Of a stretch of DNA of 64,000 nt, positions 1-46,246 are shown one piece after another. Within the stretch, counting starts at the first letter, position 1; each line of letters begins with the position of its first letter. The translations under genes and the position numbers were made by a program. Source of the stretch: Schmidtea polychroa (lineage: Eukaryota); the NCBI GenBank assembly GCA_044892525.1, contig CM097887.1:25358001-25422000 (forward strand), in the 5' to 3' direction. Under the pieces are notes generated by a model, which saw only the letters and a program-made list of their open reading frames with translations, did no database searches and had not been told where the DNA came from.

Positions 1-196
1 CATTACAAATATCTATTGGGTTTGATGTTTGAAGAGATTGAAAAACTATATCACCCCTACGATTTAAGTTTGCAATAGATCCTGAAGTTGGCGAGATTTT
101 TAAAATATCATTTTTCTTGATTTCATGAGTAAATTCTTTATTATAATCAAGATTTAATTTATTTTTTTCTTGAATTTTAAGATTTATATTATTCAT
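1..196 (-). CDS. Polinton major capsid protein, N-terminal 65 codons (partial)
   Basis: ATG at 196-194; colinear with 38905-39100 of the 431-aa capsid ORF, with few substitutions. Confidence 0.88.
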   Translation of the reverse strand, partial: MNNINLKIQEKNKLNLDYNKEFTHEIKKNDILKISPTSGSIANLNRRGDIVFQSLQTSNPIDICN

Positions 197-230: not shown

Positions 231-318
231 TCCGAACTCCGATAGCGCAGTGGGAATAGACTGGCACAGTGGTTCAAATGCTAGCGGTTCAAATCCTAAC
301 TACGGTTAGTTTTTTTTT
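231..318 (+). ncRNA. Putative Pol III small RNA cassette 1 (copy A)
   Basis: A-box TAGCGCAGTGG 243-253, B-box GGTTCAAATCC 286-296, hairpin CTAAC-TACG-GTTAG 296-309, T9 run 310-318. Confidence 0.6.
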
Positions 319-464
319 AACATAAAATAATATTAAAAATTTGAAAATAATATTGAAAATGGTGTGGGTATCTTAGATTTATATTTTATTTTATTTATTT
401 TTATTTTATTTTATTTATTTTATTTTATTTTTTTATTAATTAAAAATTTAAAAGATGACAAAAA

Positions 465-552
465 TCCGAACTCCGATAGCGCAGTGGGAATAGACTGGCA
501 TTGTGGTTCAAATGCTAGCGGTTCAAATCACGTCTGAGGTTAGTTTTTTTTT
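465..552 (+). ncRNA. Putative Pol III small RNA cassette 2 (copy A)
   Basis: A-box 477-487, B-box GGTTCAAATCA 520-530, T9 run 544-552; 234-bp tandem paralog of cassette 1 with a different 3' segment. Confidence 0.58.
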
Positions 553-1465
553 CAACATAAAATAATATTAAAAATTTGAAAATAATATTGAAAATAATTT
601 TTGAAAATAAATATTAAAAAAATATATAGTGTGGGTATCTTAGGAAATAAATCTTGTATATTTTATTTATTTTATTAATTAATTAATTTTTAAACATAAA
701 TATGAAAAAAAAAATATTGAAACGGGTGTGGTGGCGAACCGGTAATTATCGCCACCAGTCTTTCGAACACCCCCGGATCGATTCTATAATGTGCACATTT
801 ATTTCTCAGTTGTTTTCGGACCTCTTTCGGATTCACTTTCGAATTCATTTGTACTTTCGAGCAGCACGCTTAAAACGCCGATGAAATCGACTTCGAGCGA
901 GAAGCGAATAATAAGGTGTGCTGCTATTATCGGATTGATTCTGATATATAAGTCTGGCCAGCTTGTATATTGGAAGAGATTCGATAAACGAAAGAGGTTG
1001 AATAAAAAAATGATCCGGATCAAAAAAACTGTTGAGAGGACAGTGAAAAAAAAAAAAAAAAAAATACCACTGTCCTCTCAGAGCAGTTTTACTATTTTCA
1101 TAAAATTTTTTATTCTTCAAGATTAAGATTTATAAAATTATAAATTAGTCAAATAGCAACTTGCTAGTTGACATCCTCAAGTAGTGTGTTTATATCCCTA
1201 ACGACCGCAAGCCGACAAACGTTTTTCATAGTTTTATCAGTATTTTTTTCCCCGTTTTATTAATATTTTTGTTGTTTTTTTAATATTTTTGTTGTTTTTT
1301 TTAAGTCTTTATTTTGAAACCAAAATGTCTTCAGAATAAAGAAATTAAAATATATAGGTTTTTAGGGGTTTTAAGTGTTTTTTTTTACGTTTATGGGGGA
1401 AAAATAGGTATAAAACATGAAAACAGTGGGAGGCCTGTGGTCGTTAGGGATATATCCCCACTACT

Positions 1466-14450: not shown

Positions 14451-14815
14451 TTTTTCAGGATAGATCTGGAATATTTGGTTTGAACTTTATGAGACCTCTC
14501 CCCATGAGGATTAAGGAATTGAATTTCATTTTTTGTTTAAATGAAGTGAATTAATTTTTAATTAATTATTTTTGCTTAAATGAATTTAATTTAATTTTTT
14601 GTTTAAATTAATACATTTTTAAATTAATGTTTATTTTGCTCACAAGAATTTTTGACCGAATTGTTTTATGTCAATGTGAAATTCACATTATAGTCAGTGG
14701 TTTAATTAGGCTCAGTCTTTTCGCGCAAAATTTTAAGTCTCGATAAAAAAGTCTAAAGTTTTTTAGAACATCGTGAGTAAGAAATTAAGTAATATATTTT
14801 ATTTTTATTATTATA

Positions 14816-16509
14816 CAGACTTATTAATTACTATAGACAAAAATATTAATTATTATAGACAAAAATATTAATATTTATAGACAAAAAATTATTATTTATA
14901 GACAAAAATATTAATAACCATAGACAAAAATAATAACACGCATCGACAAAAAAACAACTATAGACTAAAAACATTCATTTAATGTGTAATACATTATGAA
15001 TTCAGTTAAAATATAGATAAATATAGTTAATGTCAATTATTATTGATTGGGGTGTATTATTACTATTTTCAATTAAAAAAAACCCATCACATGACATTTC
15101 TACGCACAAACATTGAAAACTCTGAAACAAGCCAGGATGGTCCTAAAAGAAGAACAACAGTAACGGTAGAAACACTGAGAAATATGCGTAACATGCTTTT
15201 ACGGGGTAGAACAGCCAAGAACATAACGGAAGATTTAAATCTTTCATCTAAAACTGTTTACAGGTGGATTGAAAGACTATCTTCATATACCGGTAGTGAA
15301 GCGGACCTGGGCACACTCATAAAACCACCGGGTCGCCAAAGAGCAGAATTGACAACCCAACAAGTGACACTGGCCGAAATTGTTGCAAATGATCCCAGTT
15401 TGACCCAACGCGGGATGTCACACTGCCTTGAAATACAAGGCATTCGTCTAAGTCAACCTACGATTTCATATCATCTAAAGAAGCTGGAATTAACTAAAAA
15501 GCGACTAGTAAAGATTGTAGATCGAAAAAATTCCAGTCAAGTTATCAACACACGCAAAAATTATGCAATTCGGTATAGGCTCAAAAATGATGAAGATTTG
15601 TTGTTTCTTGATGAAACCGGGTTGAATCTCCATTGTACAAGAAATTATGGCTACAGTCCGAAGAACACGCCGGCAAGAATAGTCGTTCCAACAGCAAGAG
15701 GGAAAAACACCTCAATTATAGCGCTAATTTCGAGAAATGCGATTTTACATAAAAAAATAATACAAGGTGCTTATAATTCTTCACTGATGGTTGATTTTTT
15801 GCGGGAATGTATTGCACTGGGTGTTATTAAATCAAATCACGTGGTATTAATGGATAATGTAAGGTTTCATAAAACCGAGCTCGTTTCGACTTTTTTTCGA
15901 CAAAATGGTGTGTCATTTGACTACATTCAACCTTACAGTTCAGAGCTCAATCCGATTGAGGAAATATTTAGCGTTATGAAGAATAGGTTTTACGAAAAGA
16001 GACCACGAGCAACCAACGCAAATACTTTGAAGTTTTATGTTGAAGCAGTTATCGATGAAATGAATAATGATCTTGATTTTAGTGCATTTTATATGAATAT
16101 GCGATCCTATATGAATAGGGCTTTTAGTGGAACGGCTTTTTAATGAATGAATAAATCAATCAATTAAATGGCTACTGTTAGTTGTAGTATTTTTCTATAT
16201 TATTCTAAACAGTTTTTGTAAAGAGGCTTATATATAATATATTTAAGTCAGCGGCATAGATATAAGTAACATTTTAGAAATATAACAATTGAACGCCCAT
16301 GGCAATTAAGATTGTATATATAAAGAATATTTTGGTCGTTAATTTTTAATGATGTGTCTATGAACATTAAATTTTTGTTTATAAATATTAATATATTTGT
16401 TTATAAATGTTAATATTTTTGTCTATAATAATAAATATTTTTGTCTATAAATATTAATATTTTTGTCTATAATAATTAATATTTTTGTCTATAATGATTA
16501 ATAAGTCTG
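14816..16509 (+). mobile_element. IS630/Tc1/mariner DNA transposon, apparently intact
   Basis: TIRs begin CAGACTTATTAAT and contain ~22-bp tatagacaaaaatattaat repeats; TA TSD at 14814-14815 and 16510-16511. Confidence 0.92.
15091..16143 (+). CDS. IS630/Tc1-like DD34E transposase (350 aa)
   Basis: N-terminal HTH; FLDETG, LMDNVRFH and YSSELNPIEE with 34 residues between the second D and E; first ATG at 15091. Confidence 0.93.
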   Translation: MTFLRTNIENSETSQDGPKRRTTVTVETLRNMRNMLLRGRTAKNITEDLNLSSKTVYRWIERLSSYTGSEADLGTLIKPPGRQRAELTTQQVTLAEIVANDPSLTQRGMSHCLEIQGIRLSQPTISYHLKKLELTKKRLVKIVDRKNSSQVINTRKNYAIRYRLKNDEDLLFLDETGLNLHCTRNYGYSPKNTPARIVVPTARGKNTSIIALISRNAILHKKIIQGAYNSSLMVDFLRECIALGVIKSNHVVLMDNVRFHKTELVSTFFRQNGVSFDYIQPYSSELNPIEEIFSVMKNRFYEKRPRATNANTLKFYVEAVIDEMNNDLDFSAFYMNMRSYMNRAFSGTAF

Positions 16510-19500
16510 TAATTATGTCAGATGAAATACAATTGAGTTATAGGTCATGTCGAAAAGAAACCTAACCCTAACCCAGTTTACTGAATATTTTTATTAATCG
16601 CTGGACTACCATTTAACTACTTATAATTAAACAGTTTATTTCATTAGTATTTGAATAAACAAAAGCATCGACAGAAAAATACATAAATAAATAAAAATAG
16701 TAATTATCACACTTCAATAATTTGTTTGTTCAATTGAAAACCTGAAATTGTTTCGAACAAGATTTCCGACCAGTTCGGTAGCCAAATGAAGTGATTCGGC
16801 TCCAAATAAAAGTGAAAATGATTTATGTCGAAGTTCAAGTTTTCAATCTAGGCGATTTTTTAATGCAATTAATAATCATAGAAAAGTGCACCGAGACTAT
16901 TTTTAAACAATAATTATAAATCTGTTTAAACATGTCAATGTGAAACCGAAATACAATTCTTGAATTAATTATCTTTATTACTGTTTTTTTTATAACAACT
17001 GTTGATTTTTTTCGCCAATTATTGCAATTTTGTTTTAATAGATGTTACTATTTTTTTGGCTTTAAATACACATTTTTATTAAAAATAATTTACAAAACAA
17101 AATCTTTCATTTATCAGCATCAAATTGAATTTTCCATAAAAAATTTATGGTTAAAAAATTTTAAAGATTTTTTTGTTTAAATTTTAAAAATAATAAATAT
17201 TTTTAATGGAAATTTATTAAAAAAAATTCATCATGAACAGTTTTGATATTTAATGAAATCATTGACAGAATGTGTAAAAGTATTTCAGAAATGGAACAGA
17301 ATTTCGATCAAAATTGGGATCAGAGATTATTGTCAGATGGACTGTATAAAATAATGCAATGTGAATAGTACACATTTTGTTTATGGAATAAAGTTGACTT
17401 GAATACATTAAATTATATAAATTATCGTAAATATTATCAAATGTTCTATTTGAGTATTTATTATAAATTTTATTTATATTATAATTATTATTAATTATTA
17501 TTATTATCATTAAATAAAACAACGCAATCTTTGTTTGTGATACCCAGTGCAGGTCAAAATAGTAAACAAGTTTTGAGCTTTTGGCTTTCATCAGTACTTG
17601 GCAGGAGATGAGAAGATTTTCGATTTTTTTTGACGAAGTCAAAAGAGGTAGAAGGATCTAATTGAATATTTGAAATGTTTGTCATTTCTTCACCTTCGCA
17701 AATAGGCAGTGTTTTAACAGAAATATCTGAAATTCTAAAGAAATATTAAATTAAAGTTTTTTAGTCATTTTCTCTACAACTCAAAGTGGAGTTCTTCAAA
17801 TCAAACTCAAAAAGTATTTCCGCAGTTTTTTTTTTGATAAATTGGAAATAATAATATTTTAACGTATCAAAAATTTGCATGTATTTTTTACTATGTGTTG
17901 TGCCTGTGTGTTAAATTTGTTTTTTCTACAACTATAACAGTTTTACTTTATTACAATATTAAATATTTACCCACAGATAAGTTTTGTGTGTTTCAACTTT
18001 ATTGATTTTTTATAGATTATAGAAAATTTTATTCATTGAAAACGGGTGTATTATAGACTGTTTTTATCAAATGCAAAGTGATGTATTTGGGATATATGTC
18101 TCACTCTTCAACACAATTTAGCACTTAAGGAAATTAAAGTTTTTTGGAACCCCATAACATTGTCACACCCACCACTTTGAAACATTGAACCTCTTTCACC
18201 TGCAACATAAACACTATCAACACCCTTACAACCATTAGATCTAAATTTACTATATTTAAACCATGCATTTAAAATATTTTCTTTTCATTGCAAGGTTAAA
18301 GTTAAAAAAAGAAAAATTATCATCAAAATTATGAAAATTAATTTAAAGTGCAATTTTTATTTTTCATTCATTTATCAATAAATAAGTTTAATCGCGTTGT
18401 AAACATTAATTACTGAAGCTATCAAAATATATTTTTTACAAATACAATAACTTTAATTGTCTTAATTCACAACTTTAGTTTCAATCATCTTTGTAAAGTC
18501 ATTTGTAAAATTATGTTTTTTTTTAATTTAAATTAATTTAATAAAAACAAATATTTTATTTTATTCCGGTTTTAAAATGTTATTCAAAAATATCGGCTTT
18601 TAAGATTTTTTTAATTACTGTAAAATTAATCAACTAGGAAATGTAAAAGGGAAAGATTTATATATTTTTTATAATTTTATTTTTTTATTTATTTTATTTT
18701 GTTACAATAAAGAAATCAAGGTTAAAACTAATTTTATTCAGAACATATTGCTTTCAATTATTCATTTGAGAGTTAAATCATAAGGATTTGTGAACCACGA
18801 ATGAATCACTTGTAATCCATTGACTAGAACGACACTGTCATAATTTCTATAACACAATTTATTTGGCACGAGATTTTGATAGATTGAGATTTTGTTCAAA
18901 ACAATTTCTTACTCTTGACTAGAAAGTTATATAAAATTGTTAAATAAGTGTTGTACATTTTTAAAAACAAAAAGTAAAAAAGAGTTTATCTTTATATGTC
19001 TACAAGAAGGCAGTGCTTGTCAAATCAAAGAAAGCTTGTAACACCAATGAAATAATTCTGCCAATAACATCCTCCTTACTAAAAAATTTATCGATAAGAA
19101 ACATCCCGACAAATTAATTCTTATCAATCTCCCCCACAGATTTTCACAAATAATCATTTAATTTTCTAGACTAATATTAATTCTTTTTGAACTCATTTCA
19201 ATATTTCAAGTCTTTAGACATTTCTTCTTTATCCTTACTAATAAGTAGATGAATTCCGTGTATAATTGGATTTTCAGATGCTATTAGAAACTTTGAAAAA
19301 GTAAACATAAAATAATAATGACCACCGAATATATCNNNNNNNNNNNNNNNNNNNNNNNNNNNNNNNNNNNNNNNNNNNNNNNNNNNNNNNNNNNNNNNNN
19401 NNNNNNNNNNNNNNNNNNNNNNNNNNNNNNNNNNNNNNNNNNNNNNNNNNNNNNNNNNNNNNNNNNNNNNNNNNNNNNNNNNNNNNNNNNNNNNNNNNNN

Positions 19501-30248: not shown

Positions 30249-30293
30249 AGTAGTGGGGATATATCCCTAACGACCACAGGCCTCCCACTGTTT
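30249..30293. repeat. Polinton left TIR (45 bp)
   Basis: AGTAGTGGGGATATATCCCTAACGACCACAGGCCTCCCACTGTTT; reverse complement at 40305-40349 and 1421-1465. Confidence 0.95.
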
Positions 30294-30295
30294 AA

Positions 30296-33200
30296 AATAA
30301 AAAACAAAATTCTGACGTTGAAGAATGTCATTCAGAAGGAGAACCTGATCATGTTGAAAGAGAAAAATACAACTGGGATGATTTTAATCATATAGATGAA
30401 TTTCAATTAAAAATTAATGGACCTGCAACCCCTGGAGAATATATAAGGAGAAATAAAAAAAATATTAAAAATTCTTTCACTGAAGCTTTAAAAAATTATA
30501 AACCAACAAGGTATAATGTTATAAAATATAAAATTACAATCAAAGCAAAATATTGGAGAGGACCAGAAGAAAAGACAACTCCTTTAGATGTTGAAATTGG
30601 AATACCTTTTAAATATTTATTTTCAACTAGAGGATTTAATAAAAGCATCAAAGAAATAATTCAAGCAGTAGAAGCAAAACAAGAAGAGGTTGAAAATGAA
30701 TTAGGAGATTCAAACTTAGTATTCAACTCTTTCCAAACTTTAGTGATTGATTATTGGAGAGGATTACCACCTAATCCTAAATCTTATATTCAAACACCCT
30801 TTAGATCTAGGGTTGTTATAAATGTACAGAATAAGGATAACAAATGTTTCATGTGGTCAATACTTGCATATTTACATCCTCAAGCTGAAAACCCCCAAAG
30901 AGTTCAACAATACAAACAATATGAAAATGAATTAATATTTCCCAAGGGATTCACGCACCCAATGAAACTAGAAGACATTCCAGAATTTGAAAAACTAAAT
31001 AATCTTAAACTTAATATTTATGAACATGTTAAAGGATGGGGACATGGAAGGAAAGATATTATTCCAATTTATATTTCTGATAGTGATAGCACGAGGGAGA
31101 TATATCTTTTAATCTTGGAAGAAGGAAATAATCAACATTATGTTTTAATAAAAGACTTTCAAGCTTTTACATCACCAGAGAATCCAACTAGTGGAGGAGG
31201 AACATGTAAAAGATGTCTTCATTATTCAACAACTAAAAACTCTATGATTAAACATGCAAGATTTTGTGAAAAAGATGATCCAGCTTTAATTAGAATGCCT
31301 ACAGATCCCAGGATGTATTTTAAAAACTTTTCAAATTTATTACAAACATTAGGAGTTGTCTATGGAGACTTTGAATCTATAAATCGTAAACAAGATATAA
31401 TTATGCAATATTTAAAAATAATAGAAAAATATAAACTCATGGATGAATGGAAAGCCTCTAAACAGAAGATGAAACCAGAGAGGATGAAAGCCTTTCTAAG
31501 AAAAAGAAATAAACCTAATAGTGTTAAAAAAACTAAACAATTACCATCTGCTTATAAACTATTATTTAAAAGTAATTATCCTGAACTCATAAAATCTAGA
31601 GAATATGCATTTCAAGGAACTTCAGAAGATGTTTTAAATCATTTTACTAAAAGTATAAATGATCTAGAACATGAAATATTTAAAATATTAAAAACAAAGT
31701 ATCCTCAAAAAATTTCTAATCAACAACAACAAGAATATGAAAATACTTCCAACTGTTGGATGTGTAAACAAGACATTCTTCCTGATGATAAAGTTATAGA
31801 TCACGATCATTTAAAAAAGGAAAATAATTATCGAGGAGCAGCCCATAGAAATTGTAATCTTAATTGTCATACTCCTAAATTTGTACCAGTTATATTTCAT
31901 AATCTTTTTGGTTATGACATACATCTATTTATTAAACATTTAGCAGAAAATGCTAAAAACTCTTTCAAAGTTATAGGACTAACAAAGGAAAAATATAAAT
32001 CAGTTGAATATGGAAAATTAAAATTTATAGACTCGTTAAACTTTCTCCAAATGTCTCTAGATGGAATAGCTAAAACAATGAAAGCAGAAAATTTTAAAAT
32101 CACTCGAGAATTCTTGGAAAAAAATAATATCCCCCAGAAGAATATCCTACATGCTTAGCAAAAGGAATATATCCCTATGACTATGTTGATTCATTTGAAA
32201 AATATAATGAAACAAAATTACCAGAGAAAGAAGATTTCTATTCCCAACTTCAAAAATCTCATATTACAAATCAAGAATATTCTCGAGCAAATAAAATGTG
32301 GGATCTTTTTAACTGTAAAACTTTAGGAGAATATACAAGTATGTACTTATCCCTAGATGTTTATATTCTAGCAGATTGCTTTGAAGAATTTACAAAGTCT
32401 TTTGTTCTTAAACCTTATAATTATATAACAGCTCCTTCTTTAGCTTGGGATACTATGTTATATACCATTTGGACTTCAGATCTTCCAGAATCTGATAAAA
32501 TTATAGATCTTTTAACCGACCAAGATATGTTTAATCAAATTAAAACAAACATTAGAGGAGGAGTATCTTCAGTAATGGGGAATAGAGAAATAAAAGCTAG
32601 AAATGCAATAACTACTAGCCGAAGAATCTCTAAACTCCCTGATCCATATATAAAACTTAACAATGAGGAACTAAAAGAAGTATTAGAAGGAATGAAAAAT
32701 CCTCTATTTATACTTTATATAGATGCAACAGCTTTATATTCAGGAATTATGACTCAATATTTACCAATGAGTGACTTTCATGAAATATATCCTCCAGAAT
32801 GCCCCTCAGAAGAAGAATGCCCCTTAAAAGACCTTATGAAAGAAATACTTTCAACTCCTAAAGATTCTCCAATAGGATACTTTGTAGAATGTGACCTCGA
32901 CTACCCAGATGATATAAAATCAGGAACAAGACATTTCCCTTTAGCTCCTATAAGAAGAAAGATTGATATCAACGAACTTTCTGAATGGCAAATCTCACAA
33001 GATAAACCTCCAACAATGAAACTTCTTTGTGATCAAACAGATCGAACTTATTATCTTTGTCACTATAGACTCCTCCAGTTTTATCTTTCACAAGGAATGA
33101 TATTAAAAAAAGTTCATAGTGTCATAAGATTTAAACAAGCAGCATTCATGAAGACTTTCATCGAGGAGAACATTCGTTGTCGAAACATTGCAAAAAGAGA

Positions 33201-34398
33201 AGGTAACCTTTTAAAAGACAATAATTATAAACTTTTAAACAATTCAGTCTTTGGGAAAACAATGGAGAATGTTGATAAATATACTCATATTGAACTCCTA
33301 ACAAATACCCCGAAAGATATAGCCCGTTATAATCGTATGCTAGGAAAGCCTACATTTAAAAACGCACAAGTATTTTCTGAAAATCTTACTGCAGTAGAAC
33401 TAAAGAATTATGAGAAAACATATAATAAACCAATATTTATTGGCTTTGCAATTTTAGAACTTTCAAAATTACAAATGTATGAAACATATTATAACATCTT
33501 ACAACCTATATATGGATCGAATATAGCAATGCATGCAATGGATACAGATTCAATGTTTTTAACAATAAGAACTCACGATTTACAAAGTGATATCTCTGAA
33601 AATCCTATACTTTCAAATTTAATAAATTCATCTGGAGAATTATTTTCGTTTAAAGATGAAAAACCTTTTACTCCTATAGAAAATGGAATATTTATTCGTG
33701 CTAAACAATATTCATATGAAACATTTACAAATCCTAAATTTGAAGAACATACATTTATATTTAAAACCCCAGAAACAGAAGAAAGCATTACACATAGATA
33801 TCCTATATTCCCTAAAGGACCTGACGGACAGGGAGAAAAACCTGTAAAGGATAACAGATGTAAAGGAATTCAGAGATGTGTAGCAAAGAATCTTTCTCAT
33901 CAAGATTATATAGATACATTGAATCCAAATCATAAAGATAAAATTGATGAAATACATCAACTTAAAAGTGAAAAGCATGATATTTACTTGATAGAATCCC
34001 AAAAAGTATCATTATCAAATTATGATGACAAAAGATTCATACTAAGTGATTTAAAGACAACTCTTCCTATAGGAAATAATTTAATACCGATAATAAAAAA
34101 TCTTGATAGATTGAATCAGTTATATGGTACAAAGATTACTAATCTTGATATTTATAATGTTGAAATCATTTATCCTGAGAGAATTGAGAAACCTTTATAT
34201 TCTCAAGTTTTTAATCCTATATGTTTAGAACTTAAATATTTTAATACTGATCCTGAATATATAAAAGGTCTAAGTGATAAAGAATTTAAAGATCATAAAG
34301 AGGTTCTAAAAACTAATTTCGAAAAGTTAACATCAGATTCTATCAAATTTCATTTTTATTTAAATATTTCTTTAAATCTTGAATATGTTTTGCTTTAG
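30296..34398 (+). pseudogene. polB: Protein-primed family B DNA polymerase; one frameshift, no start codon
   Basis: INVQNKDNKCFMWSIL, YGDFES, endoVII-like CWMC..DHDH..YRGAAH..CN, FHNLFGYD, KGIYPYDY, YIDATALY, KLLNNSVFGK, DTDS, DDKR. Frame is open from 30296 without an ATG; 1-bp deletion near the C5 run at 32131-32135. Confidence 0.95.
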
Positions 34399-34927
34399 CA
34401 CTACCATGTACTAATTCTATTAAATTTAAATATTTTTTAATTTCTAGAAGATCAACATTCTCTGAGGGATATCCACAAACTAATCCATAAAAATCATCTG
34501 TAAATTCAAAATCTAGGTGTTTAGTATTATAAACATTTTGTGAATGAATACGTGATTTATTTTCTGAACTTAAATATAACAGAAAGTCATGTTTATTAAT
34601 TGTTATTATTTGATATCCTTCAACATTAATATTAAATGTAGGTTTAATTGTTTTACTTAAACTCACATTAATTTTAGGATCAAGTATAAGAGGTTTTATA
34701 TTTAAATCTTCCAACCATGGTAATTCTTTTAAATCTTGTTTATCTTCCAACTCTTTAAATTTTAAAACTTCTAACTCTTTTATGGCTTTAATTGTTGGTC
34801 CTTGTTGTTGTTGGATTACCTCATTTAATATTATAGATTCAGCGTGTTGAGTTGTATCTTTTTTATTATATTTATCTTGTTCTGATTGTAATTTTTTTAA
34901 AAGTGCTAATCTTTCTTCATATACCAT
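34343..34927 (-). CDS. Polinton hypothetical protein (194 aa)
   Basis: Intact ORF inside the element; coiled-coil-like N-terminus; 56-bp convergent overlap with polB. Confidence 0.75.
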   Translation of the reverse strand: MVYEERLALLKKLQSEQDKYNKKDTTQHAESIILNEVIQQQQGPTIKAIKELEVLKFKELEDKQDLKELPWLEDLNIKPLILDPKINVSLSKTIKPTFNINVEGYQIITINKHDFLLYLSSENKSRIHSQNVYNTKHLDFEFTDDFYGLVCGYPSENVDLLEIKKYLNLIELVHGSAKAKHIQDLKKYLNKNEI

Positions 34928-34949
34928 TTTAATGGTATTAAAAATGGTA

Positions 34950-35555
34950 TCATTTTGGTAAAGGATCCGTTGGAAAGGGTTTCAAGTATAAACCTTTACC
35001 ATTTTTAATTTTACAAAGACATCCATTCTTTAAAGATTTACATATTTTTTTAAAATCATCTTTATCTTTTGAAGATAAAGATTCAGATGATGAAATTTGA
35101 TTTTTTAAAAAATCATTTAAACCACGGCCTTTATAAGGATCAAGATAGAGACCCCTTCCCTGAGACTTTTGCAGACTCCCCTCATATGGATTAAGATAGA
35201 GACCCTTTCCAACGGACACTCCCCCTTTAGCTTGATCCTTCTTCATTGAATCGATTTCAGTTTGTAGTTTTTCTTTTTCTAGGTCTGTCTTTTGAGATTC
35301 TTTAGCTTTTTGAACTGTAGTTGCAATTCCTCCAGCTATTCCAGCAGCACCTGATAGTCCGGCAATGATTACAGGTATTAAAGCAGCTAATGGAAGAATA
35401 CCTCCGGATTTGGAGGAACTCCCTATATGTTCTTTAACTTGTTCTTTTACATGTTTTCCAATAAAATATTTTTTACCAGAGATTACTACTGATTTATTTT
35501 TATTTGAATTTATTAATTCTTGCAAAGATTCCTCTGTAGGGTTTTGTGTTGTCAT
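34950..35555 (-). CDS. Polinton putative virion core or membrane-active protein (201 aa)
   Basis: Gly/Ala-rich hydrophobic stretch GGILPLAALIPVIIAGLSGAAGIAGG and three G(K/R)GLYLxP(Y/F) repeats. Confidence 0.7.
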   Translation of the reverse strand: MTTQNPTEESLQELINSNKNKSVVISGKKYFIGKHVKEQVKEHIGSSSKSGGILPLAALIPVIIAGLSGAAGIAGGIATTVQKAKESQKTDLEKEKLQTEIDSMKKDQAKGGVSVGKGLYLNPYEGSLQKSQGRGLYLDPYKGRGLNDFLKNQISSSESLSSKDKDDFKKICKSLKNGCLCKIKNGKGLYLKPFPTDPLPK

Positions 35556-35571
35556 TTTATAATAAATAAAA

Positions 35572-36351
35572 ATGGATACTTGGAAACCAATTTTAAATAG
35601 ACATAAATCTAAATTTAATAATAAAGTATTTCCTGATAATTTTAGATGCTTAATTATTGGATCTTCTGGATGTGGAAAGAATGTTCTTCTTATGAGAATG
35701 TTATTAGAAGATGGTTTTTTGGATTATAATAATTTAATCTTTTATTCTACAACCATTAACCAACCGGAATTAAAACTTTTGAAATGTGGATTTGAAAATA
35801 AATTAACTAAAAAAGCTATAATTGATATTTTTAAAAATCAACATACATATCCCGAAGAGGTTTTTCATCCTTGTGATATGGTTGATTGGTACAAGGAAAA
35901 GATTTTAGAATCAGATATTAGTAATAAAAATGATTATATAGGGGATGGAATCCAGATCTTATTCTCTAATAAACCTGAAGATGTTTTACATTGTGATTTA
36001 CTTCCTAAAGATAAAAAGAATCTAGTTATATTTGATGATGTTGTTAACATGAAAAATCAAGAGATTCAAAAGAGTTACTTTACACGAGGTAGACATAATA
36101 ATTGTAATGTTATTTATATATCTCAAACATATTATGCTTTAGATAAAAACTCTATAAGAAATAATTCTAATTGTTTTATATTTTTTAAATTAGACAAGCG
36201 TGATAAGAATATGATTTATAATGATTTATTTTCAAATGTTGAACCTGATAAGAATATGTTTGATATGTTTCTTGATAATCATTGGAAAGAAAAATATAAT
36301 TATATTTATTTGGATAGAGAAGAAGCTGAAATATGGAAAAGTTTGTTTTAG
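35572..36351 (+). CDS. A32/FtsK-like genome packaging ATPase (259 aa)
   Basis: Walker A IIGSSGCGKN, Walker B LVIFDD, FTRGRHNNCNVIYISQTYY and IRNN motifs. Confidence 0.93.
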   Translation: MDTWKPILNRHKSKFNNKVFPDNFRCLIIGSSGCGKNVLLMRMLLEDGFLDYNNLIFYSTTINQPELKLLKCGFENKLTKKAIIDIFKNQHTYPEEVFHPCDMVDWYKEKILESDISNKNDYIGDGIQILFSNKPEDVLHCDLLPKDKKNLVIFDDVVNMKNQEIQKSYFTRGRHNNCNVIYISQTYYALDKNSIRNNSNCFIFFKLDKRDKNMIYNDLFSNVEPDKNMFDMFLDNHWKEKYNYIYLDREEAEIWKSLF

Positions 36352-36362
36352 GGCTTGTCGAC

Positions 36363-37775
36363 TTAAAAACTTGTTTTCTGTAGTTCATTATTATAAAATC
36401 TACCTAATATTTTTTCATTATTTAAATCGATGATACCATATGTTATTGGAGTTGTATGATGTATTTTATTTATAATAAAAATTTCATTTGTCCATTTTGC
36501 TGTGAATCCTTTTTCAAATTTATTTTTATATTTAAATATTCTTACGCGGTCACCAATTTTAAACTTTGGTTTTATGGGTGTTGTATCAATATTTACCACT
36601 TTAACGGTTTCGGGATTTATGAGTTCCAAAGGATTCAAGGAAGCATTTAAAGGTGTTAATTTTATAGAACTATGTACATCATTATTATATTCATTTACAA
36701 TCTTTTGTAACAATTCATTGTTCCATTTTTGTTTTCCAATAGCAGTAAAATATTTCCACATTTTATTTTTTAATGTTCTATTTAATCTTTCAACTACGAC
36801 TGCTTTTCCTTCGTTTTCTGTTGAATATAATTTAATATCATTTTCATTTAAAAACTTTGTAAAAACTTTGTTATAAAATTCTGTTCCTTTATCACACCAT
36901 AGATATTTTGGAATTCTTTGATGTTGTTCAAATATATTTTCAAATGCTTCTGTAATAGAATATCCTGTTTTATTTTCTAAACATCTTGCAAAAGCAAATC
37001 TTGTATATAAATCTATTACTGTTAAAATTATTTTATATTTTTCAGGGTCTGATGATTTGGCTGGCATAAAGACTAAATCTGCAGACCATGTTTGATCTTT
37101 TTCATGTACTTGAACTTTTAAATATTTTTTATTTTTTCTAAATTCATGGTGTAATTCATTAGCATATTTTATTTCTGATTCTGTTGGGGTTTGTAAACTA
37201 GTCTTGGCTGTACTCTCGAGGGATCGTTCAATCTCTGCTTGTTCGATAATCTTTTTATTAGCAACATCTTTTGCTTTCCTAGGAAGTCTTGCACCCATGG
37301 TGATCGGACTGTGTCCTAAGCCTATGAAAATCTTACCTTTCATTGCTAATTTAACTAGAGCTCTTTGAATCTTTTCTTGGGTTGATGGATTTTGTATATT
37401 ATTTAAATCATGTATTAAATTCACATCTGCAACATGTCTATCTCTAAGATTTGTTGAATTGTAAGCAATATCATGTTTTAAAGCTGCTTGGTCGATTCTA
37501 TTTATTGGTTCTTCTCCTTGTTTAGGATTATTATTTTCATCTAATCTAATATCTAATCTTGTTCCTGGTCCAGTATAATTGTGACGGAATAAATGTCTTT
37601 CACCTGGATATTTTTCTGTAGTAAAAGGTTTTAATATTGTAGATGTTGTTTTTGAAGATTGTAGGTCGCCTCCTGTAATATCAACTCTCGTATGTTTTTT
37701 AGTTTTTAAATGACTTGCTTTGTGATGTCTTGTAACTTGACAATTACAACTTTCACATGTCCAATATTTACTCAT
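36363..37775 (-). CDS. Integrase with N-terminal C2H2 zinc finger and parvovirus-type PLA2 domain (470 aa)
   Basis: CESC..HHKASHLKTKKH; HNYTGPGT..DQAALKHDIAY..RHVAD; DDE core WSADL, LWCDKGTEF, VERLNRTLK; C-terminal FKIGDRVRI. Confidence 0.93.
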   Translation of the reverse strand: MSKYWTCESCNCQVTRHHKASHLKTKKHTRVDITGGDLQSSKTTSTILKPFTTEKYPGERHLFRHNYTGPGTRLDIRLDENNNPKQGEEPINRIDQAALKHDIAYNSTNLRDRHVADVNLIHDLNNIQNPSTQEKIQRALVKLAMKGKIFIGLGHSPITMGARLPRKAKDVANKKIIEQAEIERSLESTAKTSLQTPTESEIKYANELHHEFRKNKKYLKVQVHEKDQTWSADLVFMPAKSSDPEKYKIILTVIDLYTRFAFARCLENKTGYSITEAFENIFEQHQRIPKYLWCDKGTEFYNKVFTKFLNENDIKLYSTENEGKAVVVERLNRTLKNKMWKYFTAIGKQKWNNELLQKIVNEYNNDVHSSIKLTPLNASLNPLELINPETVKVVNIDTTPIKPKFKIGDRVRIFKYKNKFEKGFTAKWTNEIFIINKIHHTTPITYGIIDLNNEKILGRFYNNELQKTSF

Positions 37776-37804
37776 TTTAAAAGTTTTTTTATGGGGGAAT
37801 CTAC

Positions 37805-39100
37805 TTATGAAGAATCTCCCCTAACATTTTCAATAATTGAAATCTTTCCACCATATAATTTCATTTCTATTTTCTTTTCTTCTAATATTAATGTATATAC
37901 TTTAGCTTTAAAATTAGAATCCTTTGTTATATGAAGTGTAACATCAACATTATTTATGGCTAGGCGATCATCTTGGTCTGAAACATTTATACAAAATATA
38001 GAATATAAATTTTTGAAATCTTCTAAACTTAATTGCGGTTCAACTTTGAAATCATAACATGTTTCAATATAATTTAGATATGGGAATATGTTTTCATTAT
38101 TTTCAATATTAAATTCCATTCTATTTATTGGATAATAAGAACTATTTAATTGAATTTGGATTGTTTTTAAATTATCATTTCCAATCTTTTGAATAAACAA
38201 GTTGTTATTTTTTTGAAATGATGGATCTGTTTCTTTGAATCCAATCAAGATATATCTTGGTCGGTATGCTAAATTTGCCACCTTTATAGAATATGTTGAA
38301 CCCTCTGTCATACTAAATTCACTACAGATTCTATTTAAATAATTTACATTTATAGACTTGTTGGAATTTAATCTTTCAAGGAGTTTGATTTCAGAATGTG
38401 GATTTAATGTCCATTCAGGTATATGCAATTCAAGTGTTGATAATTTTAATTTAGCTTTTGTATCTGCAGCTCCATAGAACAATCTTTTATCACCTTCTAG
38501 TCTATTACAGATGAGTTCTATAAAAACATTATGGAGCACCCGGTTATAGTTTTGAAGGAATCCGAACAAGTGTTTTAATTCAAAATAACCTTCAAATTTT
38601 TTCAACTTATAAAGTTCAACTCTTTTATAGTAAGCATAATTTATATCTAAACCATCTTTATCTAAATCCCCTTTATTAACATCAGGAATCCAACCTGTTA
38701 ATTCACCATATTCGTTTTTATAATCACAACCAGTTAAAATAAAATTTAACATTGTAGAATATACTCCTGGATGCAAAACAGTTTCAATTTCTGATGATCC
38801 TAGTTTTAATCTCATGTTGGAGAATAAATTTGGAAAGAAATTATTTTCTAGGGTTATATCTTTGTTTGCTTCAATTTCTAATTCAATTTTATAATATAAT
38901 TTGGCATTACAAATATCTACTGGGTTTGATGTTTGAAGAGATTGAAAAACTATATCACCCCTACGATTTAAGTTTGCAATAGATCCTGAAGTTGGCAAGA
39001 TTTTTAAAATATCATTTTTCTTGATTTCATGAGTAAATTCTTTATTATAATCAAGATTTAATTTATTTTTTTCTTGAATTTTAAGATTTATATTATTCAT
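37805..39100 (-). CDS. Polinton major capsid protein (double jelly-roll, 431 aa)
   Basis: NNFFPNLFSNMRLKLG, RPRYILIGF, IQLNSSYYP and FKNLYSIFCINVS fit the Maverick capsid pattern, as do size and context. Confidence 0.85.
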   Translation of the reverse strand: MNNINLKIQEKNKLNLDYNKEFTHEIKKNDILKILPTSGSIANLNRRGDIVFQSLQTSNPVDICNAKLYYKIELEIEANKDITLENNFFPNLFSNMRLKLGSSEIETVLHPGVYSTMLNFILTGCDYKNEYGELTGWIPDVNKGDLDKDGLDINYAYYKRVELYKLKKFEGYFELKHLFGFLQNYNRVLHNVFIELICNRLEGDKRLFYGAADTKAKLKLSTLELHIPEWTLNPHSEIKLLERLNSNKSINVNYLNRICSEFSMTEGSTYSIKVANLAYRPRYILIGFKETDPSFQKNNNLFIQKIGNDNLKTIQIQLNSSYYPINRMEFNIENNENIFPYLNYIETCYDFKVEPQLSLEDFKNLYSIFCINVSDQDDRLAINNVDVTLHITKDSNFKAKVYTLILEEKKIEMKLYGGKISIIENVRGDSS

Positions 39101-39132
39101 TTTTATAATAAAAATTTAAAAAATGATAAAAA

Positions 39133-39219
39133 TCCGAACTCCGATAGCGCAGTGGGCTAGACTGGCACAGTGGTTCAAATAGATAGCGGTTCAAATCCTA
39201 ACTACGGTTAGTTTTTTTT
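39133..39219 (+). ncRNA. Putative Pol III small RNA cassette 1 (copy B)
   Basis: A-box 39145-39155, B-box 39188-39198, C(UACG)G hairpin 39198-39211, T8 run 39212-39219. Confidence 0.6.
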
Positions 39220-39350
39220 AACATAAAATAATATTAAAAATTTGAAAATAATATTGAAAATGGTGTGGGTATCTTAGATTTATATTTTATTTTATTTATT
39301 TTATTTTATTTTATTTTTTTATTAATTAAAAATTTAAAAAATGACAAAAA

Positions 39351-39438
39351 TCCGAACTCCGATAGCGCAGTGGGAATAGACTGGCATTGTGGTTCAAATG
39401 CTAGCGGTTCAAATCACGTCTGAGGTTAGTTTTTTTTT
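39351..39438 (+). ncRNA. Putative Pol III small RNA cassette 2 (copy B)
   Basis: A-box 39363-39373, B-box 39406-39416, T9 run 39430-39438; identical to 465-552. Confidence 0.58.
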
Positions 39439-40066
39439 CAACATAAAATAATATTAAAAATTTGAAAATAATATTGAAAATAATTTTTGAAAATAAATAT
39501 TAAAAAAATATATAGTGTGGGTATCTTAGGAAATAAATCTTGTTTATTTTATTTATTTATTAATTAATTAATTTTTAAACATAAATATGAAAAAAAAATA
39601 TTGAAACGGGTGATGGTGGCGAACCGGTAATTATCGCCACCAGTCTTTCGAACACCCCCGGATCGATTCTATAATGTGCACATTTATTTCTTGGTTGTTT
39701 TCGGACCTCTTTCGGATTCGCTTTCGAATTCATTTGTACTTTCGAGCAGCACACTTAAAACGCCGATGAAATCGACTTCGTGAGCGAGAAGCGAATAATA
39801 AGGTGTGCTGCTATTATCGAATTGATTCTGATATATAAGTCTGGCCAGCTTGTATATTGGAAGAGATTTGATAAACGAAAGAGGTTGAAATAAAAAAAAA
39901 ATGATCCGGATCAAAAAAAACTGTTGAGAGGACAGTGAAAAAAAAAAAAAATACCACTGTCCTCTCAGAGCAGTTTTACTATTTTCATAAAATTTTTTAT
40001 TCTTCAAGATTAAGATTTATAAAATTATAAATTAGTCAAATAGCAACTTGCTAGTTGACATCCTCA

Positions 40067-40130
40067 AGTAGTGTGTTTATATCCCTAACGACCGCAAGCC
40101 GACAAACGTTTTTCATAGTTTTATCAGTAT
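40067..40130 (+). repeat. Internal degenerate copy of the Polinton terminus
   Basis: AGTAGTGTGTTTATATCCCTAACGACCGCAAGCC..., inverted relative to the right TIR; also at 1180-1243. Confidence 0.8.
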
Positions 40131-40639
40131 TTTTCTCCGTTTTATTAATATTTTTGTTGTTTTTTTTAATATTTTTGTTGTTTTTTTTAAGTCTTTATTT
40201 TGAAACCAAAATGTCTTCAGAATAAAGAAATTAAAAGATATAGGTTTTTAAGGTTTTAAGTGTTTTTTTTACGTTTATGGGGGAAAAATAGGTATAAAAC
40301 ATGAAAACAGTGGGAGGCTTGTGGTCGTGAGGGATATATCCCCACTACTTTATTGTAATTAAAGGAAATCGAAATGAAAATAATTAAATAATGAAAATAA
40401 TTAATAGCATCAAATTTACTGTTTGCAAAGCTTTGAACCGCTTTTGTCACACCCGAAGTGTTCCAAAATCGCAACTTCTGACCCATCTTCAATCTTGCAA
40501 TGTAGATCGATGTGCTGCCAAGAAGCCATAGATCTCATGCAACCTTTTAAGCAGATTTATTTGATCGAGAATCTCAATCTTGAGTTTTCAAGGTTTTTCT
40601 CGAAAATTTTATAATTTTTTACGATTTTCAAGGGGTTTC

Positions 40640-44170: not shown

Positions 44171-46246
44171 NAAGTCGCGGTTTTTTTCAGACGCTGACGG
44201 TGCTGCGACTTAAATAAAGGAGCGACTTATATAATAAGTTTAATCACGTGCCGTTTCTATAATAAATCTAAATGTAATCAACAATTTGTGACTGTTCTGT
44301 CTTTGATGAACTGATAATTGATGCCGTGGTTATCAAAGGCCCTTTTTGTAATATGATACAATCATAAACCATCACCATCATTATAATATATCTAAGACGC
44401 CATATAGCCTATTTCGTAAACCAAGCTTACAGGATGTCTAGGCTAGGCGAACTGCCGCCATGTTGGCGTGTCAGTTTAACTGCCGATCTGATTGGTCATT
44501 TCGGACCCTGGATCCGAAATTTGAGAGCCCATCAAACAAATGTCAGCTTTAATCACCAGATGGCAGTGTATATAAGACCACTGTAATAGATTTCCTGTCA
44601 AAACAATTTAATTTTTCAAATTAAAATATACCGAAAGTTTAGTGCAAAATGAGTTCCAACAAAACAAGGAAATCGTACACTGCCGAGTTTAAGCTGCAAA
44701 CTATCAAATTTGCTGAGGAAAACGGCAATCGAGCGACTGAGCGGCGATTTAATATTAGTGAAAAACTAGTTCGAGATTGGCGAAAATCAAAAGATGCGCT
44801 GTTGCTGACAAAAAGAACCAAGCGGGCGAATCGAGGTCATAAAGCAAGATGGCCGGGACTGGAAAATCAGCTTTCTAAGTTTATTGTGGAGCAGCGAGCT
44901 CAAGGTCGCGGAATATCAACCGTCCAAGTTCGTCTTAAGGCCAAAGAAATAGCGAATGATCTGGTAATTGATGAATTCATTGGTGGACCATCTTGGTGTT
45001 TTCGTTTCATGAAGCGCCAGCAGCTCTGCATCAGATCAAGAACGACCATGTGTCAACAACTGCCTGCTGACTACATCGAAAAAATCCGGAATTTTCGTGA
45101 ATTCATTTATTCAAAAGTCGCGAAATATGAAATCATTCCAGATCATATTATCAACATGGATGAAGTTCCACTCACCTTCGATATTCCTCTGGGTCGAACT
45201 CTCAATAACAAAGGTGAGAAAACGATCAACATAAGAACAACTGGCCACGAGAAATCGCAGTTTACGGTCGTGCTGTCATGCTGTGGTGATGGAAGGAAGC
45301 TTCCTCCAATGATAATCTTCAAAAGGAAAACCATTTCCCAACAACGTGATCATTCAAACCAACGCAAAGGGATGGATGAATGAAGAAATGATGAACATAT
45401 GGTTGGAGAGATGTTTCAAAAAGAGGCCTGACGGATTCTTCAAAACTAAAAAGGCATTGCTCGTAATGGACAGTATGCGAGCTCACATCACAGAGAACAT
45501 AAAAACGAAAGTTAAAGGCAACAACTCGATTCCTGTCATTATACCAGGTGGTCTGACGAAGGTGCTACAACCTCTGGATATTTCTGTCAACCGAAGTTTC
45601 AAGGTCCATCTGCGTCGTTTGTGGGAAAGATGGATGACCAGCGGTGAACATAGCTTTACGGCAACAGGTCGCATGCGTCATGCCACTTTTGCGGAAGTGG
45701 CCAAATGGGTGGTCGAGGCATGGGATAAATTGAATCCGGCGATTATCACCAGTGGATTCAAGAAAGCGGAAATCTTACTGGCAGACAATGATGACAACGA
45801 CGACTCTGATAGCGATGATGATGATGACAACTATGAACTGACTGTACCAGATGAAATTGCTCAATTATTTGAAAGCGATACTGAAGATGAAGGCTTTAAT
45901 GGATTTAATGGATTTACAGACTCTGATTTTTATTGATAAATTTAACTTCATTAATCGACATTTATAACTTAGGCATTTCGTTTTATTGATATAAATAATT
46001 TCTCTATAAATTAAAAAGAAATATTCCACGTTATTAAATACTTGCGCTAAATGATTTTTGTTCTCACCTCTTCTCTTTAGTGTCTTTAATTAAACTTGGC
46101 GACCACCACCGAACAAAGTAAACATTTCCGCAGAGGCATGCTTATTACTGTATAAGTGCGACTTAAATAACGGAGCGACTTATATATTAATTTTTCCAAA
46201 ATTTTAGCCATTTTTTACAATTGCGACTTATACACAGGAGCGACTT
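44171..46246 (+). mobile_element. pogo-family DNA transposon (termini fall in N-gaps)
   Basis: Subterminal gcgactta(a/t)ata repeats on both sides of a pogo transposase. Confidence 0.85.
44649..45936 (+). pseudogene. pogo/Tigger DD35D transposase, one frameshift
   Basis: BrkDBD-like YTAEFKL, CENP-B HTH, NMDEVP, LLVMDS, QPLD; frame break at about 45330-45350; acidic C-terminal tail. Confidence 0.92.

What the first reader, a model, noticed from the sequence alone, without database searches (positions are those of the whole stretch)
231..552. Tandem pair of Pol III-type small-RNA genes in a Polinton: possible VA-RNA analogues
Seen: between the capsid start codon and the right terminus, both Polinton copies carry two ~85-nt GC-richer islands (231-318 and 465-552; 39133-39219 and 39351-39438). 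Each has an A-box (TAGCGCAGTGG), a B-box (GGTTCAAATC[C/A]) 32 nt downstream, and a T8-9 run. The acceptor and T-stems do not pair as a cloverleaf, so these are not tRNAs. Both can form a central stem (CUGGCA/UGCUAG). They differ mainly at the 3' end, where cassette 1 ends in a C(UACG)G hairpin. They face away from the capsid gene. Established: adenoviruses, which also use a protein-primed PolB, encode tandem A/B-box Pol III VA RNAs. Inference: this element makes two non-coding RNAs that may counter RNAi or innate defence or aid capsid translation. I know of no such report for Polintons but cannot check the literature.
Basis: partly seen in the sequence, partly recalled or inferred. Interest (0 to 1): 0.85.

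Follow-up and report, generated by a model that had tools for sequence, protein, structure and literature searches.

The report
Small-RNA gene cluster at Polinton ends
A virus-like jumping element with over a thousand copies in this animal genome carries, at both ends, short likely tRNA-derived units and a longer unit predicted to fold, all bearing the signals read by RNA polymerase III, so it probably makes its own small RNAs, the long one possibly as a decoy against the host's RNA-silencing defence.

Summary
The two units are real. The units lie in the ~1-kb terminal inverted repeats at both ends of full-length Polintons, facing outward, and were not found as a free SINE. Two more short types (B, C) occur in sister copies; B is a worn host tRNA-Cys. 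The reported short units keep boxes, spacing and T-run but no fold: the proposed central stem is in 20 of 90 variants, the UACG hairpin in 9 of 90. They are poor VA-RNA analogues. Unit D has its own boxes 32 nt apart, folds strongly (z -8.5), and its common variants keep pairing (9 of 9, against 20 of 55 rare ones), with 9 G-U and no A-C in its long hairpin. D is the VA-like candidate. The module is optional: 24 of 78 sister capsid loci lack it. No RNA data were obtained, so transcription is untested. The scan noted this family before (three notes) and similar Polinton hairpins in other genomes (three notes). No paper found.

The parts
231..318 (+). Short Pol III-type unit, type A, first copy (A box 243-253, extra B-like box 271-279, B box 286-295, T9 310-318)
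465..552 (+). Short unit type A, second copy (A box 477-487, extra B-like box 505-513, B box 520-529, T9 544-552); tandem duplicate of a 234-bp unit starting near 198 and 432
720..1111 (+). Unit D: long Pol III-type unit predicted to fold (A box 732-742, B box 775-784, internal T4 813-816, end runs T4 1087, T4 1095, T6 1106); start and end are inferred
927..987 (+). Long imperfect hairpin inside D (27 oppositions: 16 Watson-Crick, 9 G-U, 0 A-C, 2 other, by commonest pair over 97 copies)
1025..1090 (+). 3' hairpin of D with an oligo(A) loop of variable length; one A-U/G-C double change (58 vs 35 copies)
1180..1465 (.). Terminal module of Polinton copy 1 (AGTAGT...ACTACT); right end of the element at 1465
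1..196 (-). 5' end of the major capsid gene of copy 1 (start codon at 196), head-to-head with the first unit; copy 1 continues at least 10 kb left of the window
39133..39219 (+). Type-A unit, Polinton copy 2, first; lacks the 3' arm of the proposed central stem
39351..39438 (+). Type-A unit, copy 2, second; identical to 465-552
39605..39998 (+). Unit D of copy 2 (A box at 39617)
40067..40349 (.). Terminal module and right end of copy 2
30249..40349 (.). Polinton copy 2: 10.1 kb, 6-bp target duplication TTATTG, internally deleted (left repeat reduced to 45 bp, polymerase 5' part and a central block missing)
37805..39100 (-). Major capsid protein gene (double jelly roll, PF21738)
36363..37775 (-). 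Integrase (rve) with N-terminal PLA2-like domain
35572..36351 (+). Packaging ATPase (Pox_A32)
30851..34398 (+). Protein-primed DNA polymerase B, in two ORFs (30851-32158, 32296-34398)

Best explanation
The terminal repeats of this Polinton family carry an optional cluster of outward-facing units with internal A and B boxes, which host RNA polymerase III likely transcribes: the short, likely tRNA-Cys-derived units probably act mainly as TFIIIC/Pol III loading sites that keep the element's ends open, and the long unit D likely yields a folded RNA of about 370-390 nt whose duplex would serve as a decoy for host dsRNA-handling proteins such as Dicer. Shown: boxes, spacing, T-runs, position in both repeats, head-to-head with the polymerase and capsid start codons, confinement to Polinton sequence, conservation of boxes without fold in type A, pair-keeping variation in D, absence from short-repeat sister elements. 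Inferred: transcription (about 0.7), an RNA-level role of D (about 0.65), read-through of D's internal T4, the DNA-level role of the short units (about 0.5), the decoy role specifically (about 0.35).
For: Six of six generic A/B hits in the window are these units. D is in both repeats of 9 of 9 full-length elements and type A in both or one. In type A, common variants touch 2 of 30 box columns but 26 of 47 other columns (Fisher p 9e-6); types A, B and C share boxes, 31-33-nt spacing and T-run while the middle diverged. B passes the Rfam tRNA cut-off (32.4 vs 29 bits) with D- and T-arms paired, acceptor and anticodon stems broken, and aligns best to the host tRNA-Cys among four host tRNAs tried (score 44, shuffle max 23). 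D: A box in 96 of 97 copies, B box in 94 of 96, gap 32 nt in 88 of 94, the spacing of the host initiator tRNA; box pair in 3 of 5,000 shuffles; z -8.5 on +, -6.5 on -; in 82 core pairs common variants keep pairing 9 of 9, rare ones 20 of 55 (p 3.6e-4); 9 G-U to 0 A-C in the long hairpin (p 0.004); two pairs with double changes, 20 cells against 6.8 shuffled. D's internal T-run is T4 in 95 of 96 copies while three of four host tRNA types end in T5-7. In a planarian, Polintons are piRNA/H3K9me3 targets (PMC8532177, passages), a pressure such a module could answer if the host is a planarian (inferred).
Against: No RNA evidence at all: the runs offered were contigs only and none was laid. The module is dispensable: 24 of 78 capsid loci and 10 of 10 chosen short-end elements lack it, with capsids 86-97% identical. 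No box pair in 37 metagenome relatives, 94 kb, mostly short contigs without ends. D copies are over 87% identical and related, so only 2 of 114 pairs show double changes (161 of 500 shuffles reach that); strand-biased mutation could add G-U pairs. Host tRNA-Cys genes are followed only by T4 runs, so D might stop at 813-816 and give about 95 nt without the hairpin. The common variants are few events counted over many copies. The insulator role rests on recalled tDNA biology and search listings only.
Confidence: 0.42

Rival explanations
1. D is a Pol III pre-miRNA/shRNA gene (bovine leukaemia virus or TMER type): the 61-nt hairpin is cut into a guide RNA that silences host or element mRNAs.
For: Hairpin 927-987 has pre-miRNA size, 25 pairs and a 7-nt loop, 99.8% of cells paired; internal type-2 boxes; precedent in TMERs (PMC8223928, passages) and BLV (PMC12498455, abstract start in listing).
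Against: Both arms carry common substitutions, which a fixed guide would resist; no Rfam miRNA match above cut-off; no complementarity to the interior of two full-length elements at E<1; the hairpin sits in a multi-helix junction.
Confidence: 0.18
2. The short type-A RNAs themselves are the VA analogues, made in bulk from about 2,500 copies and titrating La, RNAi or sensors.
For: Intact boxes and long T-runs; tandem layout; the tRNA-like part of TMERs is reported to suffice for function (PMC8223928, passage); type B keeps D- and T-arms.
Against: No conserved fold (mean z -0.2 in 15 variants; stem 20 of 90; hairpin 9 of 90); 5' and 3' segments come in 16 and 22 alleles; the internal 15-nt block occurs once to three times.
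Confidence: 0.12
3. Neutral or nearly neutral cargo: captured tRNA pieces and a fold-back spread by hitch-hiking in the repeats of one successful subfamily; the fold reflects inverted duplication or single-stranded DNA during replication.
For: Module absent from intact-looking sister elements with target duplications; presence changes at least 3 and up to 10 times on a weakly resolved capsid tree; the fold is also strong on the other strand; an orphan C-B-B-B block lies outside any Polinton.
Against: Box columns are spared while neighbours vary; four different units keep the same spacing and direction; G-U/A-C asymmetry and the common-versus-rare contrast fit selection on one RNA strand.
Confidence: 0.15
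4. D RNA is a translation modulator in the manner of BC1/BC200 (recalled): its A-rich stretches bind poly(A)-binding protein and shift translation towards element mRNAs.
For: Two A-rich tracts, one held as a loop of 9 or more A on a compensated stem in all 36 aligned copies; B box of the initiator-tRNA type.
Against: Analogy from memory only; D's head does not align to host initiator tRNA or tRNA-Cys beyond the box; A-tracts are common in this AT-rich genome.
Confidence: 0.1

Closest known systems
Adenovirus VA RNA I/II (PMC7589676, passages read)
   Same: Internal A and B boxes, oligo-U end, carried by a linear dsDNA element with protein-primed polymerase; D has the A box in a 5' stem and long duplexes.
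   Different: VA RNAs are about 160 nt with terminal stem, central GGGU-ACCC domain and apical stem, and lie inside the genome. Type A is about 85 nt and unfolded; D is about 370-390 nt, multi-branched, with an oligo(A) loop; both lie in the terminal repeats. No Rfam VA match.
Murine gammaherpesvirus 68 TMERs (PMC8223928, passages)
   Same: Cluster of tRNA-like Pol III units near a genome end, with repeated promoter boxes and hairpins; reported as dispensable for replication.
   Different: TMERs join a tRNA-like head and miRNA hairpins in one transcript; here a T9 and 170 nt of AT-rich spacer part type A from D, and D's head is no cloverleaf.
tRNA genes of polinton-like viruses and MELD viruses (PMC12220804 and PMC8502044, passages)
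   Same: tRNA-related sequence inside Polinton-type elements.
   Different: Those were called as tRNAs by ARAGORN/Rfam and read as codon support; these fail ARAGORN, have broken acceptor stems, and come with a long folded unit.
tRNA-derived SINEs
   Same: tRNA-derived head with A and B boxes, thousands of copies.
   Different: Copies lie at a fixed place inside Polinton ends, with no tail or own target duplication.
tDNA/ETC chromatin boundaries (PMC3395662, PMC12409998: search listing and abstract start only; otherwise recalled)
   Same: Boxes kept without a functional RNA, placed between host chromatin and the element's outermost genes.
   Different: Known from host chromosomes; here A box and terminator are kept too, which pure ETC sites need not have (recalled).

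Membership tests
Polinton/Maverick (host element) | Protein-primed PolB, integrase, ATPase, DJR capsid | tested here: met
   Pfam PF03175, PF00665, PF04665, PF21738 above cut-off
Polinton/Maverick (host element) | Terminal inverted repeats and 5-8-bp target duplication | tested here: met
   Repeats of 834-1,127 bp in 9 of 9 fetched copies, exact 6-bp duplication in 6 of 9; TTATTG in window copy 2
Pol III type-2 gene | Internal A box and B box about 30-40 nt apart | tested here: met
   Types A, B, D; type C has a degenerate B box ending in T
Pol III type-2 gene | Oligo-T terminator closing the unit | tested here: inconclusive
   Met for A and B (T7-9); D has an internal T4 and ends in T4, T4-5, T6
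Pol III type-2 gene | Transcription by Pol III | not testable with these tools
   Only contigs were offered; nothing was laid
Adenovirus VA RNA | Length about 160 nt | tested here: not met
   Type A about 85 nt; D about 370-390 nt, or about 95 nt if it stops at T4
Adenovirus VA RNA | Terminal stem, apical stem and central GGGU-ACCC domain | tested here: not met
   Type A has no GGGU and no stable fold. D has GGGU/ACCC in its 5' stem around the A box, not centrally, and that helix is the least kept (93% of cells, not in the alignment fold)
Adenovirus VA RNA | Match to the Rfam VA model | tested here: not met
   No such hit up to E 10
Adenovirus VA RNA | Binds PKR, Dicer, Exportin-5 | not testable with these tools
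   Needs bench work; PKR is vertebrate-specific (recalled)
tRNA | Cloverleaf with paired acceptor and anticodon stems | tested here: not met
   ARAGORN 0; type B scores 32.4 bits but 2 acceptor and 3 anticodon-stem pairs are broken; type A no hit
tRNA-derived SINE | Dispersed copies outside a carrier element, with tail and own target duplication | tested here: not met
   Type A in Polinton context 10 of 10 and 20 of 20; B 28 of 30 on both sides, 2 on one side; C 11 of 12; D 30 of 30
TMER / Pol III pre-miRNA | tRNA-like head and miRNA hairpin in one transcript, processed to miRNA | tested here: inconclusive
   D joins boxes and a 61-nt hairpin, but its head is not tRNA-like and processing could not be tested

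The most novel reading that the evidence does not exclude
Animal Polintons encode their own VA-like RNA: unit D is a Pol III transcript made from both terminal repeats that decoys Dicer or other dsRNA sensors, flanked by tRNA-derived units that shield the ends from silencing; a swappable counter-defence module whose presence and absence among sister copies in one genome is a ready natural experiment.
Probability: 0.28. Interest if true: 0.86.

Novelty: new variant of a known kind. Interest (0 to 1): 0.62.

Why it matters
Polintons are held to be close kin of adenoviruses, yet are described almost only by their proteins. A Pol III RNA under structural selection would be a first non-coding counter-defence gene for them in the papers I could search, and would bear on whether VA-type RNAs arise repeatedly from captured tRNA promoters. 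Because module-bearing and module-less sister copies coexist by the hundreds, existing chromatin and small-RNA data can test both the boundary and the decoy idea.

Tried and rejected
tRNA-Trp origin of the second unit (recalled likeness of its 3' end): the 13-mer has 107 genome hits, 19 of the first 20 are Polinton units, none a tRNA, and the 100 listed show no tRNA-like array; rejected. Initiator-tRNA origin of D's head: no alignment beyond the 7-nt box; rejected. Hammerhead-like reading of D: no Rfam ribozyme hit. Antisense targeting of element genes: none at E<1. Relatives in viral contigs: none by capsid protein, alignment or D pattern. Metagenome relatives: 37 loci, no box pair; low-threshold ARAGORN calls there were not trusted, and the one just upstream of a capsid gene (L166) is AT-rich sequence without a box pair. 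Run search: three guessed-RNA contig sets hold 26-46% of the words, small shares of 0.07-0.09 in other organisms are probably AT-rich words; none was laid, so none counts as evidence. The capsid tree is the quick tree, 44 of 72 inner branches open. Literature: ten searches; 'polinto' with 'polymerase III' gave 10 papers, by title general reviews or unrelated (listing only); term searches in PMC10748475 and PMC8097293 found no tRNA, Pol III or non-coding mention. Repbase reports, subscription papers and all supplements were not seen and may hold a note on these repeats.

Full report
Setting. The window holds the right end of one Polinton (end at 1465) and a second, internally deleted copy at 30249-40349 with a 6-bp target duplication. 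Polymerase B, packaging ATPase, integrase with a PLA2-like domain and double-jelly-roll capsid pass Pfam cut-offs. The genome is 781 Mb. The host is likely a planarian; this rests on an earlier scan note that names planarian families and on recall, and was not tested.

The observation. The four islands, their boxes, the 32-nt gap and the T8-9 runs are as reported. They are 44% GC in a 10% GC spacer, are not tRNAs for ARAGORN and have no Rfam match. The two in each end are tandem copies of a 234-bp unit, 80 of 88 letters alike. The proposed structures do not hold: z-scores lie between -0.9 and +0.6, the central stem is in 20 and the UACG hairpin in 9 of 90 distinct variants, and the 39133 copy lacks the stem's 3' arm.

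Where they sit. The type-A pattern has 2,480 hits, control 0. The 10 best hits and 20 hits picked from the first 100 for lacking an inverted partner all lie in Polinton sequence. In nine full-length elements of 12.4-15.1 kb, chosen from inverted hit pairs, the units lie at the inner edge of 834-1,127-bp terminal repeats, one or two per repeat, facing outward, head-to-head with the polymerase gene on one side and the capsid gene on the other; one of 18 repeats showed no unit with the strict pattern.

More units and their origin. Sister copies carry two further short types between capsid gene and repeat: B (about 1,290 hits: 2,288 minus 994 host tRNA-Cys genes) and C (1,948 hits). B matches the host tRNA-Cys from the D-arm to the anticodon and in the B box (score 44, shuffle maximum 23; three other host tRNAs tried scored 14-27) and passes the Rfam tRNA cut-off with D- and T-arms paired but acceptor and anticodon stems broken. 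A, B and C align with each other (scores 36-56), so a common tRNA-Cys origin is likely; for A alone the match to Cys is weak (26-28, near the shuffle maximum) and only five host tRNA types were compared. In type A, variants seen in five or more sequences touch 2 of 30 box columns and 26 of 47 other columns (p 9e-6). What is kept is the promoter and terminator, not the RNA.

Unit D. Downstream, 715-1095 folds far better than shuffles (z -8.5 on +, -6.5 on -). It has its own A box (732-742) and B box (775-784), 32 nt apart. A generic scan finds exactly six box pairs in the 64-kb window, the four type-A units and the two D copies, and 3 of 5,000 shuffles of D give one. Among 97 distinct copies (101 found, 4 with large deletions dropped) the A box is in 96, the B box in 94 of those 96, varying mainly at a free position. 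D has 2,866 pattern hits, 30 of 30 loci in Polinton context, and is in both repeats of 9 of 9 full-length elements. In 82 core pairs, variants in seven or more copies keep pairing 9 times of 9, variants in one or two copies 20 times of 55 (p 3.6e-4); the 61-nt hairpin has 9 G-U and no A-C oppositions (p 0.004). On 36 of the copies the structure tool gives 97.8% paired cells against 41-47% when slid and 20 double-change cells against 6.8 shuffled, but only 2 of 114 pairs with double changes, which 161 of 500 shuffles reach. This is evidence for selection on one RNA strand, limited by close kinship of the copies and by possible strand-biased mutation. D has an internal T4 in 95 of 96 copies (T5 in one) and ends in T4, T4-5 and T6; host initiator, Lys and Arg tRNA genes end in T5-7, Cys genes only in T4 runs. 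A 370-390-nt product needs read-through, which is inferred.

An optional module. Of 78 capsid loci (best-scoring hits, not a random draw; two repeats of the same place dropped), 53 have short units and D, 24 neither, 1 units only. Ten elements picked for short ends have no unit and no D in 166 kb, though their capsids are 86-97% identical to the window's. Presence changes 3 to 10 times on a quick, weakly resolved tree, and the module occurs with different terminal blocks, so it is likely exchanged by recombination. No box pair was found in 37 metagenome relatives, mostly short contigs without ends, and none in viral contigs.

Mechanism. Shown: layout and conservation. Inferred: TFIIIC binds the boxes and Pol III transcribes outward at both ends; the short units work mainly through this binding, as boundary or open-chromatin sites beside the polymerase and capsid promoters (tDNA barrier biology recalled; listings only); D yields a stable folded RNA whose duplex would titrate Dicer or other dsRNA-binding proteins. 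In a planarian, Polintons are reported as piRNA and H3K9me3 targets (PMC8532177, passages). No expression data were obtained, so every functional step is open. Rivals: D as pre-miRNA, short RNAs as the decoys, neutral cargo, PABP-binding translation modulator.

Comparison. VA RNAs are defined by boxes, a U4 end, about 160 nt and a three-domain fold with a central GGGU-ACCC stem (PMC7589676, passages); neither unit is a member, though D may work like one. TMERs are the nearest layout (PMC8223928, passages). True tRNA genes are known in polinton-like and MELD viruses (PMC12220804, PMC8502044, passages). Ten literature searches and term searches in two Polinton surveys found no report of Pol III-type non-tRNA units in Polintons; Repbase, subscription papers and supplements were not seen. 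Earlier notes of this scan describe the same family three times, two mentioning the folded stretch, and Polinton hairpin units in other genomes three times; these are unchecked AI notes, read after my own analysis of D, and not independent support.

Verdict. Real feature, partly misread. New variant of a known kind (viral Pol III non-coding RNA genes). Interest 0.62.

Noticed in passing
window 1180-1465 and 40067-40349; L100, L101, L113, L120, L121, L124, L125: Each element end is a 200-300-bp block with its own inverted ends (AGTAGT...ACTACT); its sequence differs between subfamilies and is swapped independently of the capsid gene and of the RNA module.
   Followed up: partly
L273 (G000:C1:12360-13468): Orphan C-B-B-B block outside any Polinton near a contig start, among 104-bp and 75-bp satellites; another A/B-box-like sequence lies about 240 nt upstream of it.
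   Followed up: partly
L091 (G000:C1:5086500-5089600): Two further type-A variants in tandem, one with a wholly different middle and a degenerate B box; D is missing in this truncated copy.
   Followed up: no
L088 and L312: A deletion inside D removes the loop of one helix and leaves its stem able to pair.
   Followed up: no
G000:C1:269.25 Mb, C1:79.33 Mb, C4:76.66 Mb, C140, C333: Host tRNA genes lie in very large tandem arrays: 994 Cys and 1,230 initiator-Met pattern hits, also Lys and Arg arrays.
   Followed up: no
L259:1856-1941: A tRNA-Tyr-like sequence with an intron lies about 460 nt outside the left end of a short-end Polinton; ARAGORN does not call it.
   Followed up: no
window 36363-37775: The PLA2-like domain is fused to the integrase here; PMC8502044 describes PLA2 joined to a pX-like domain instead. 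A weak pX match (E 0.019) is in a separate gene, the one head-to-head with the ATPase.
   Followed up: no
window 14800-16510 and 44649-45936: A Tc1/mariner-like element with 22-bp subterminal repeats and an intact 350-aa DDE transposase, and a split Tc5/pogo-like transposase.
   Followed up: no
L158: Two D-bearing ends lie nested within 2 kb in the same orientation, one of them a left end followed by capsid-side sequence: a rearranged or recombined copy.
   Followed up: no
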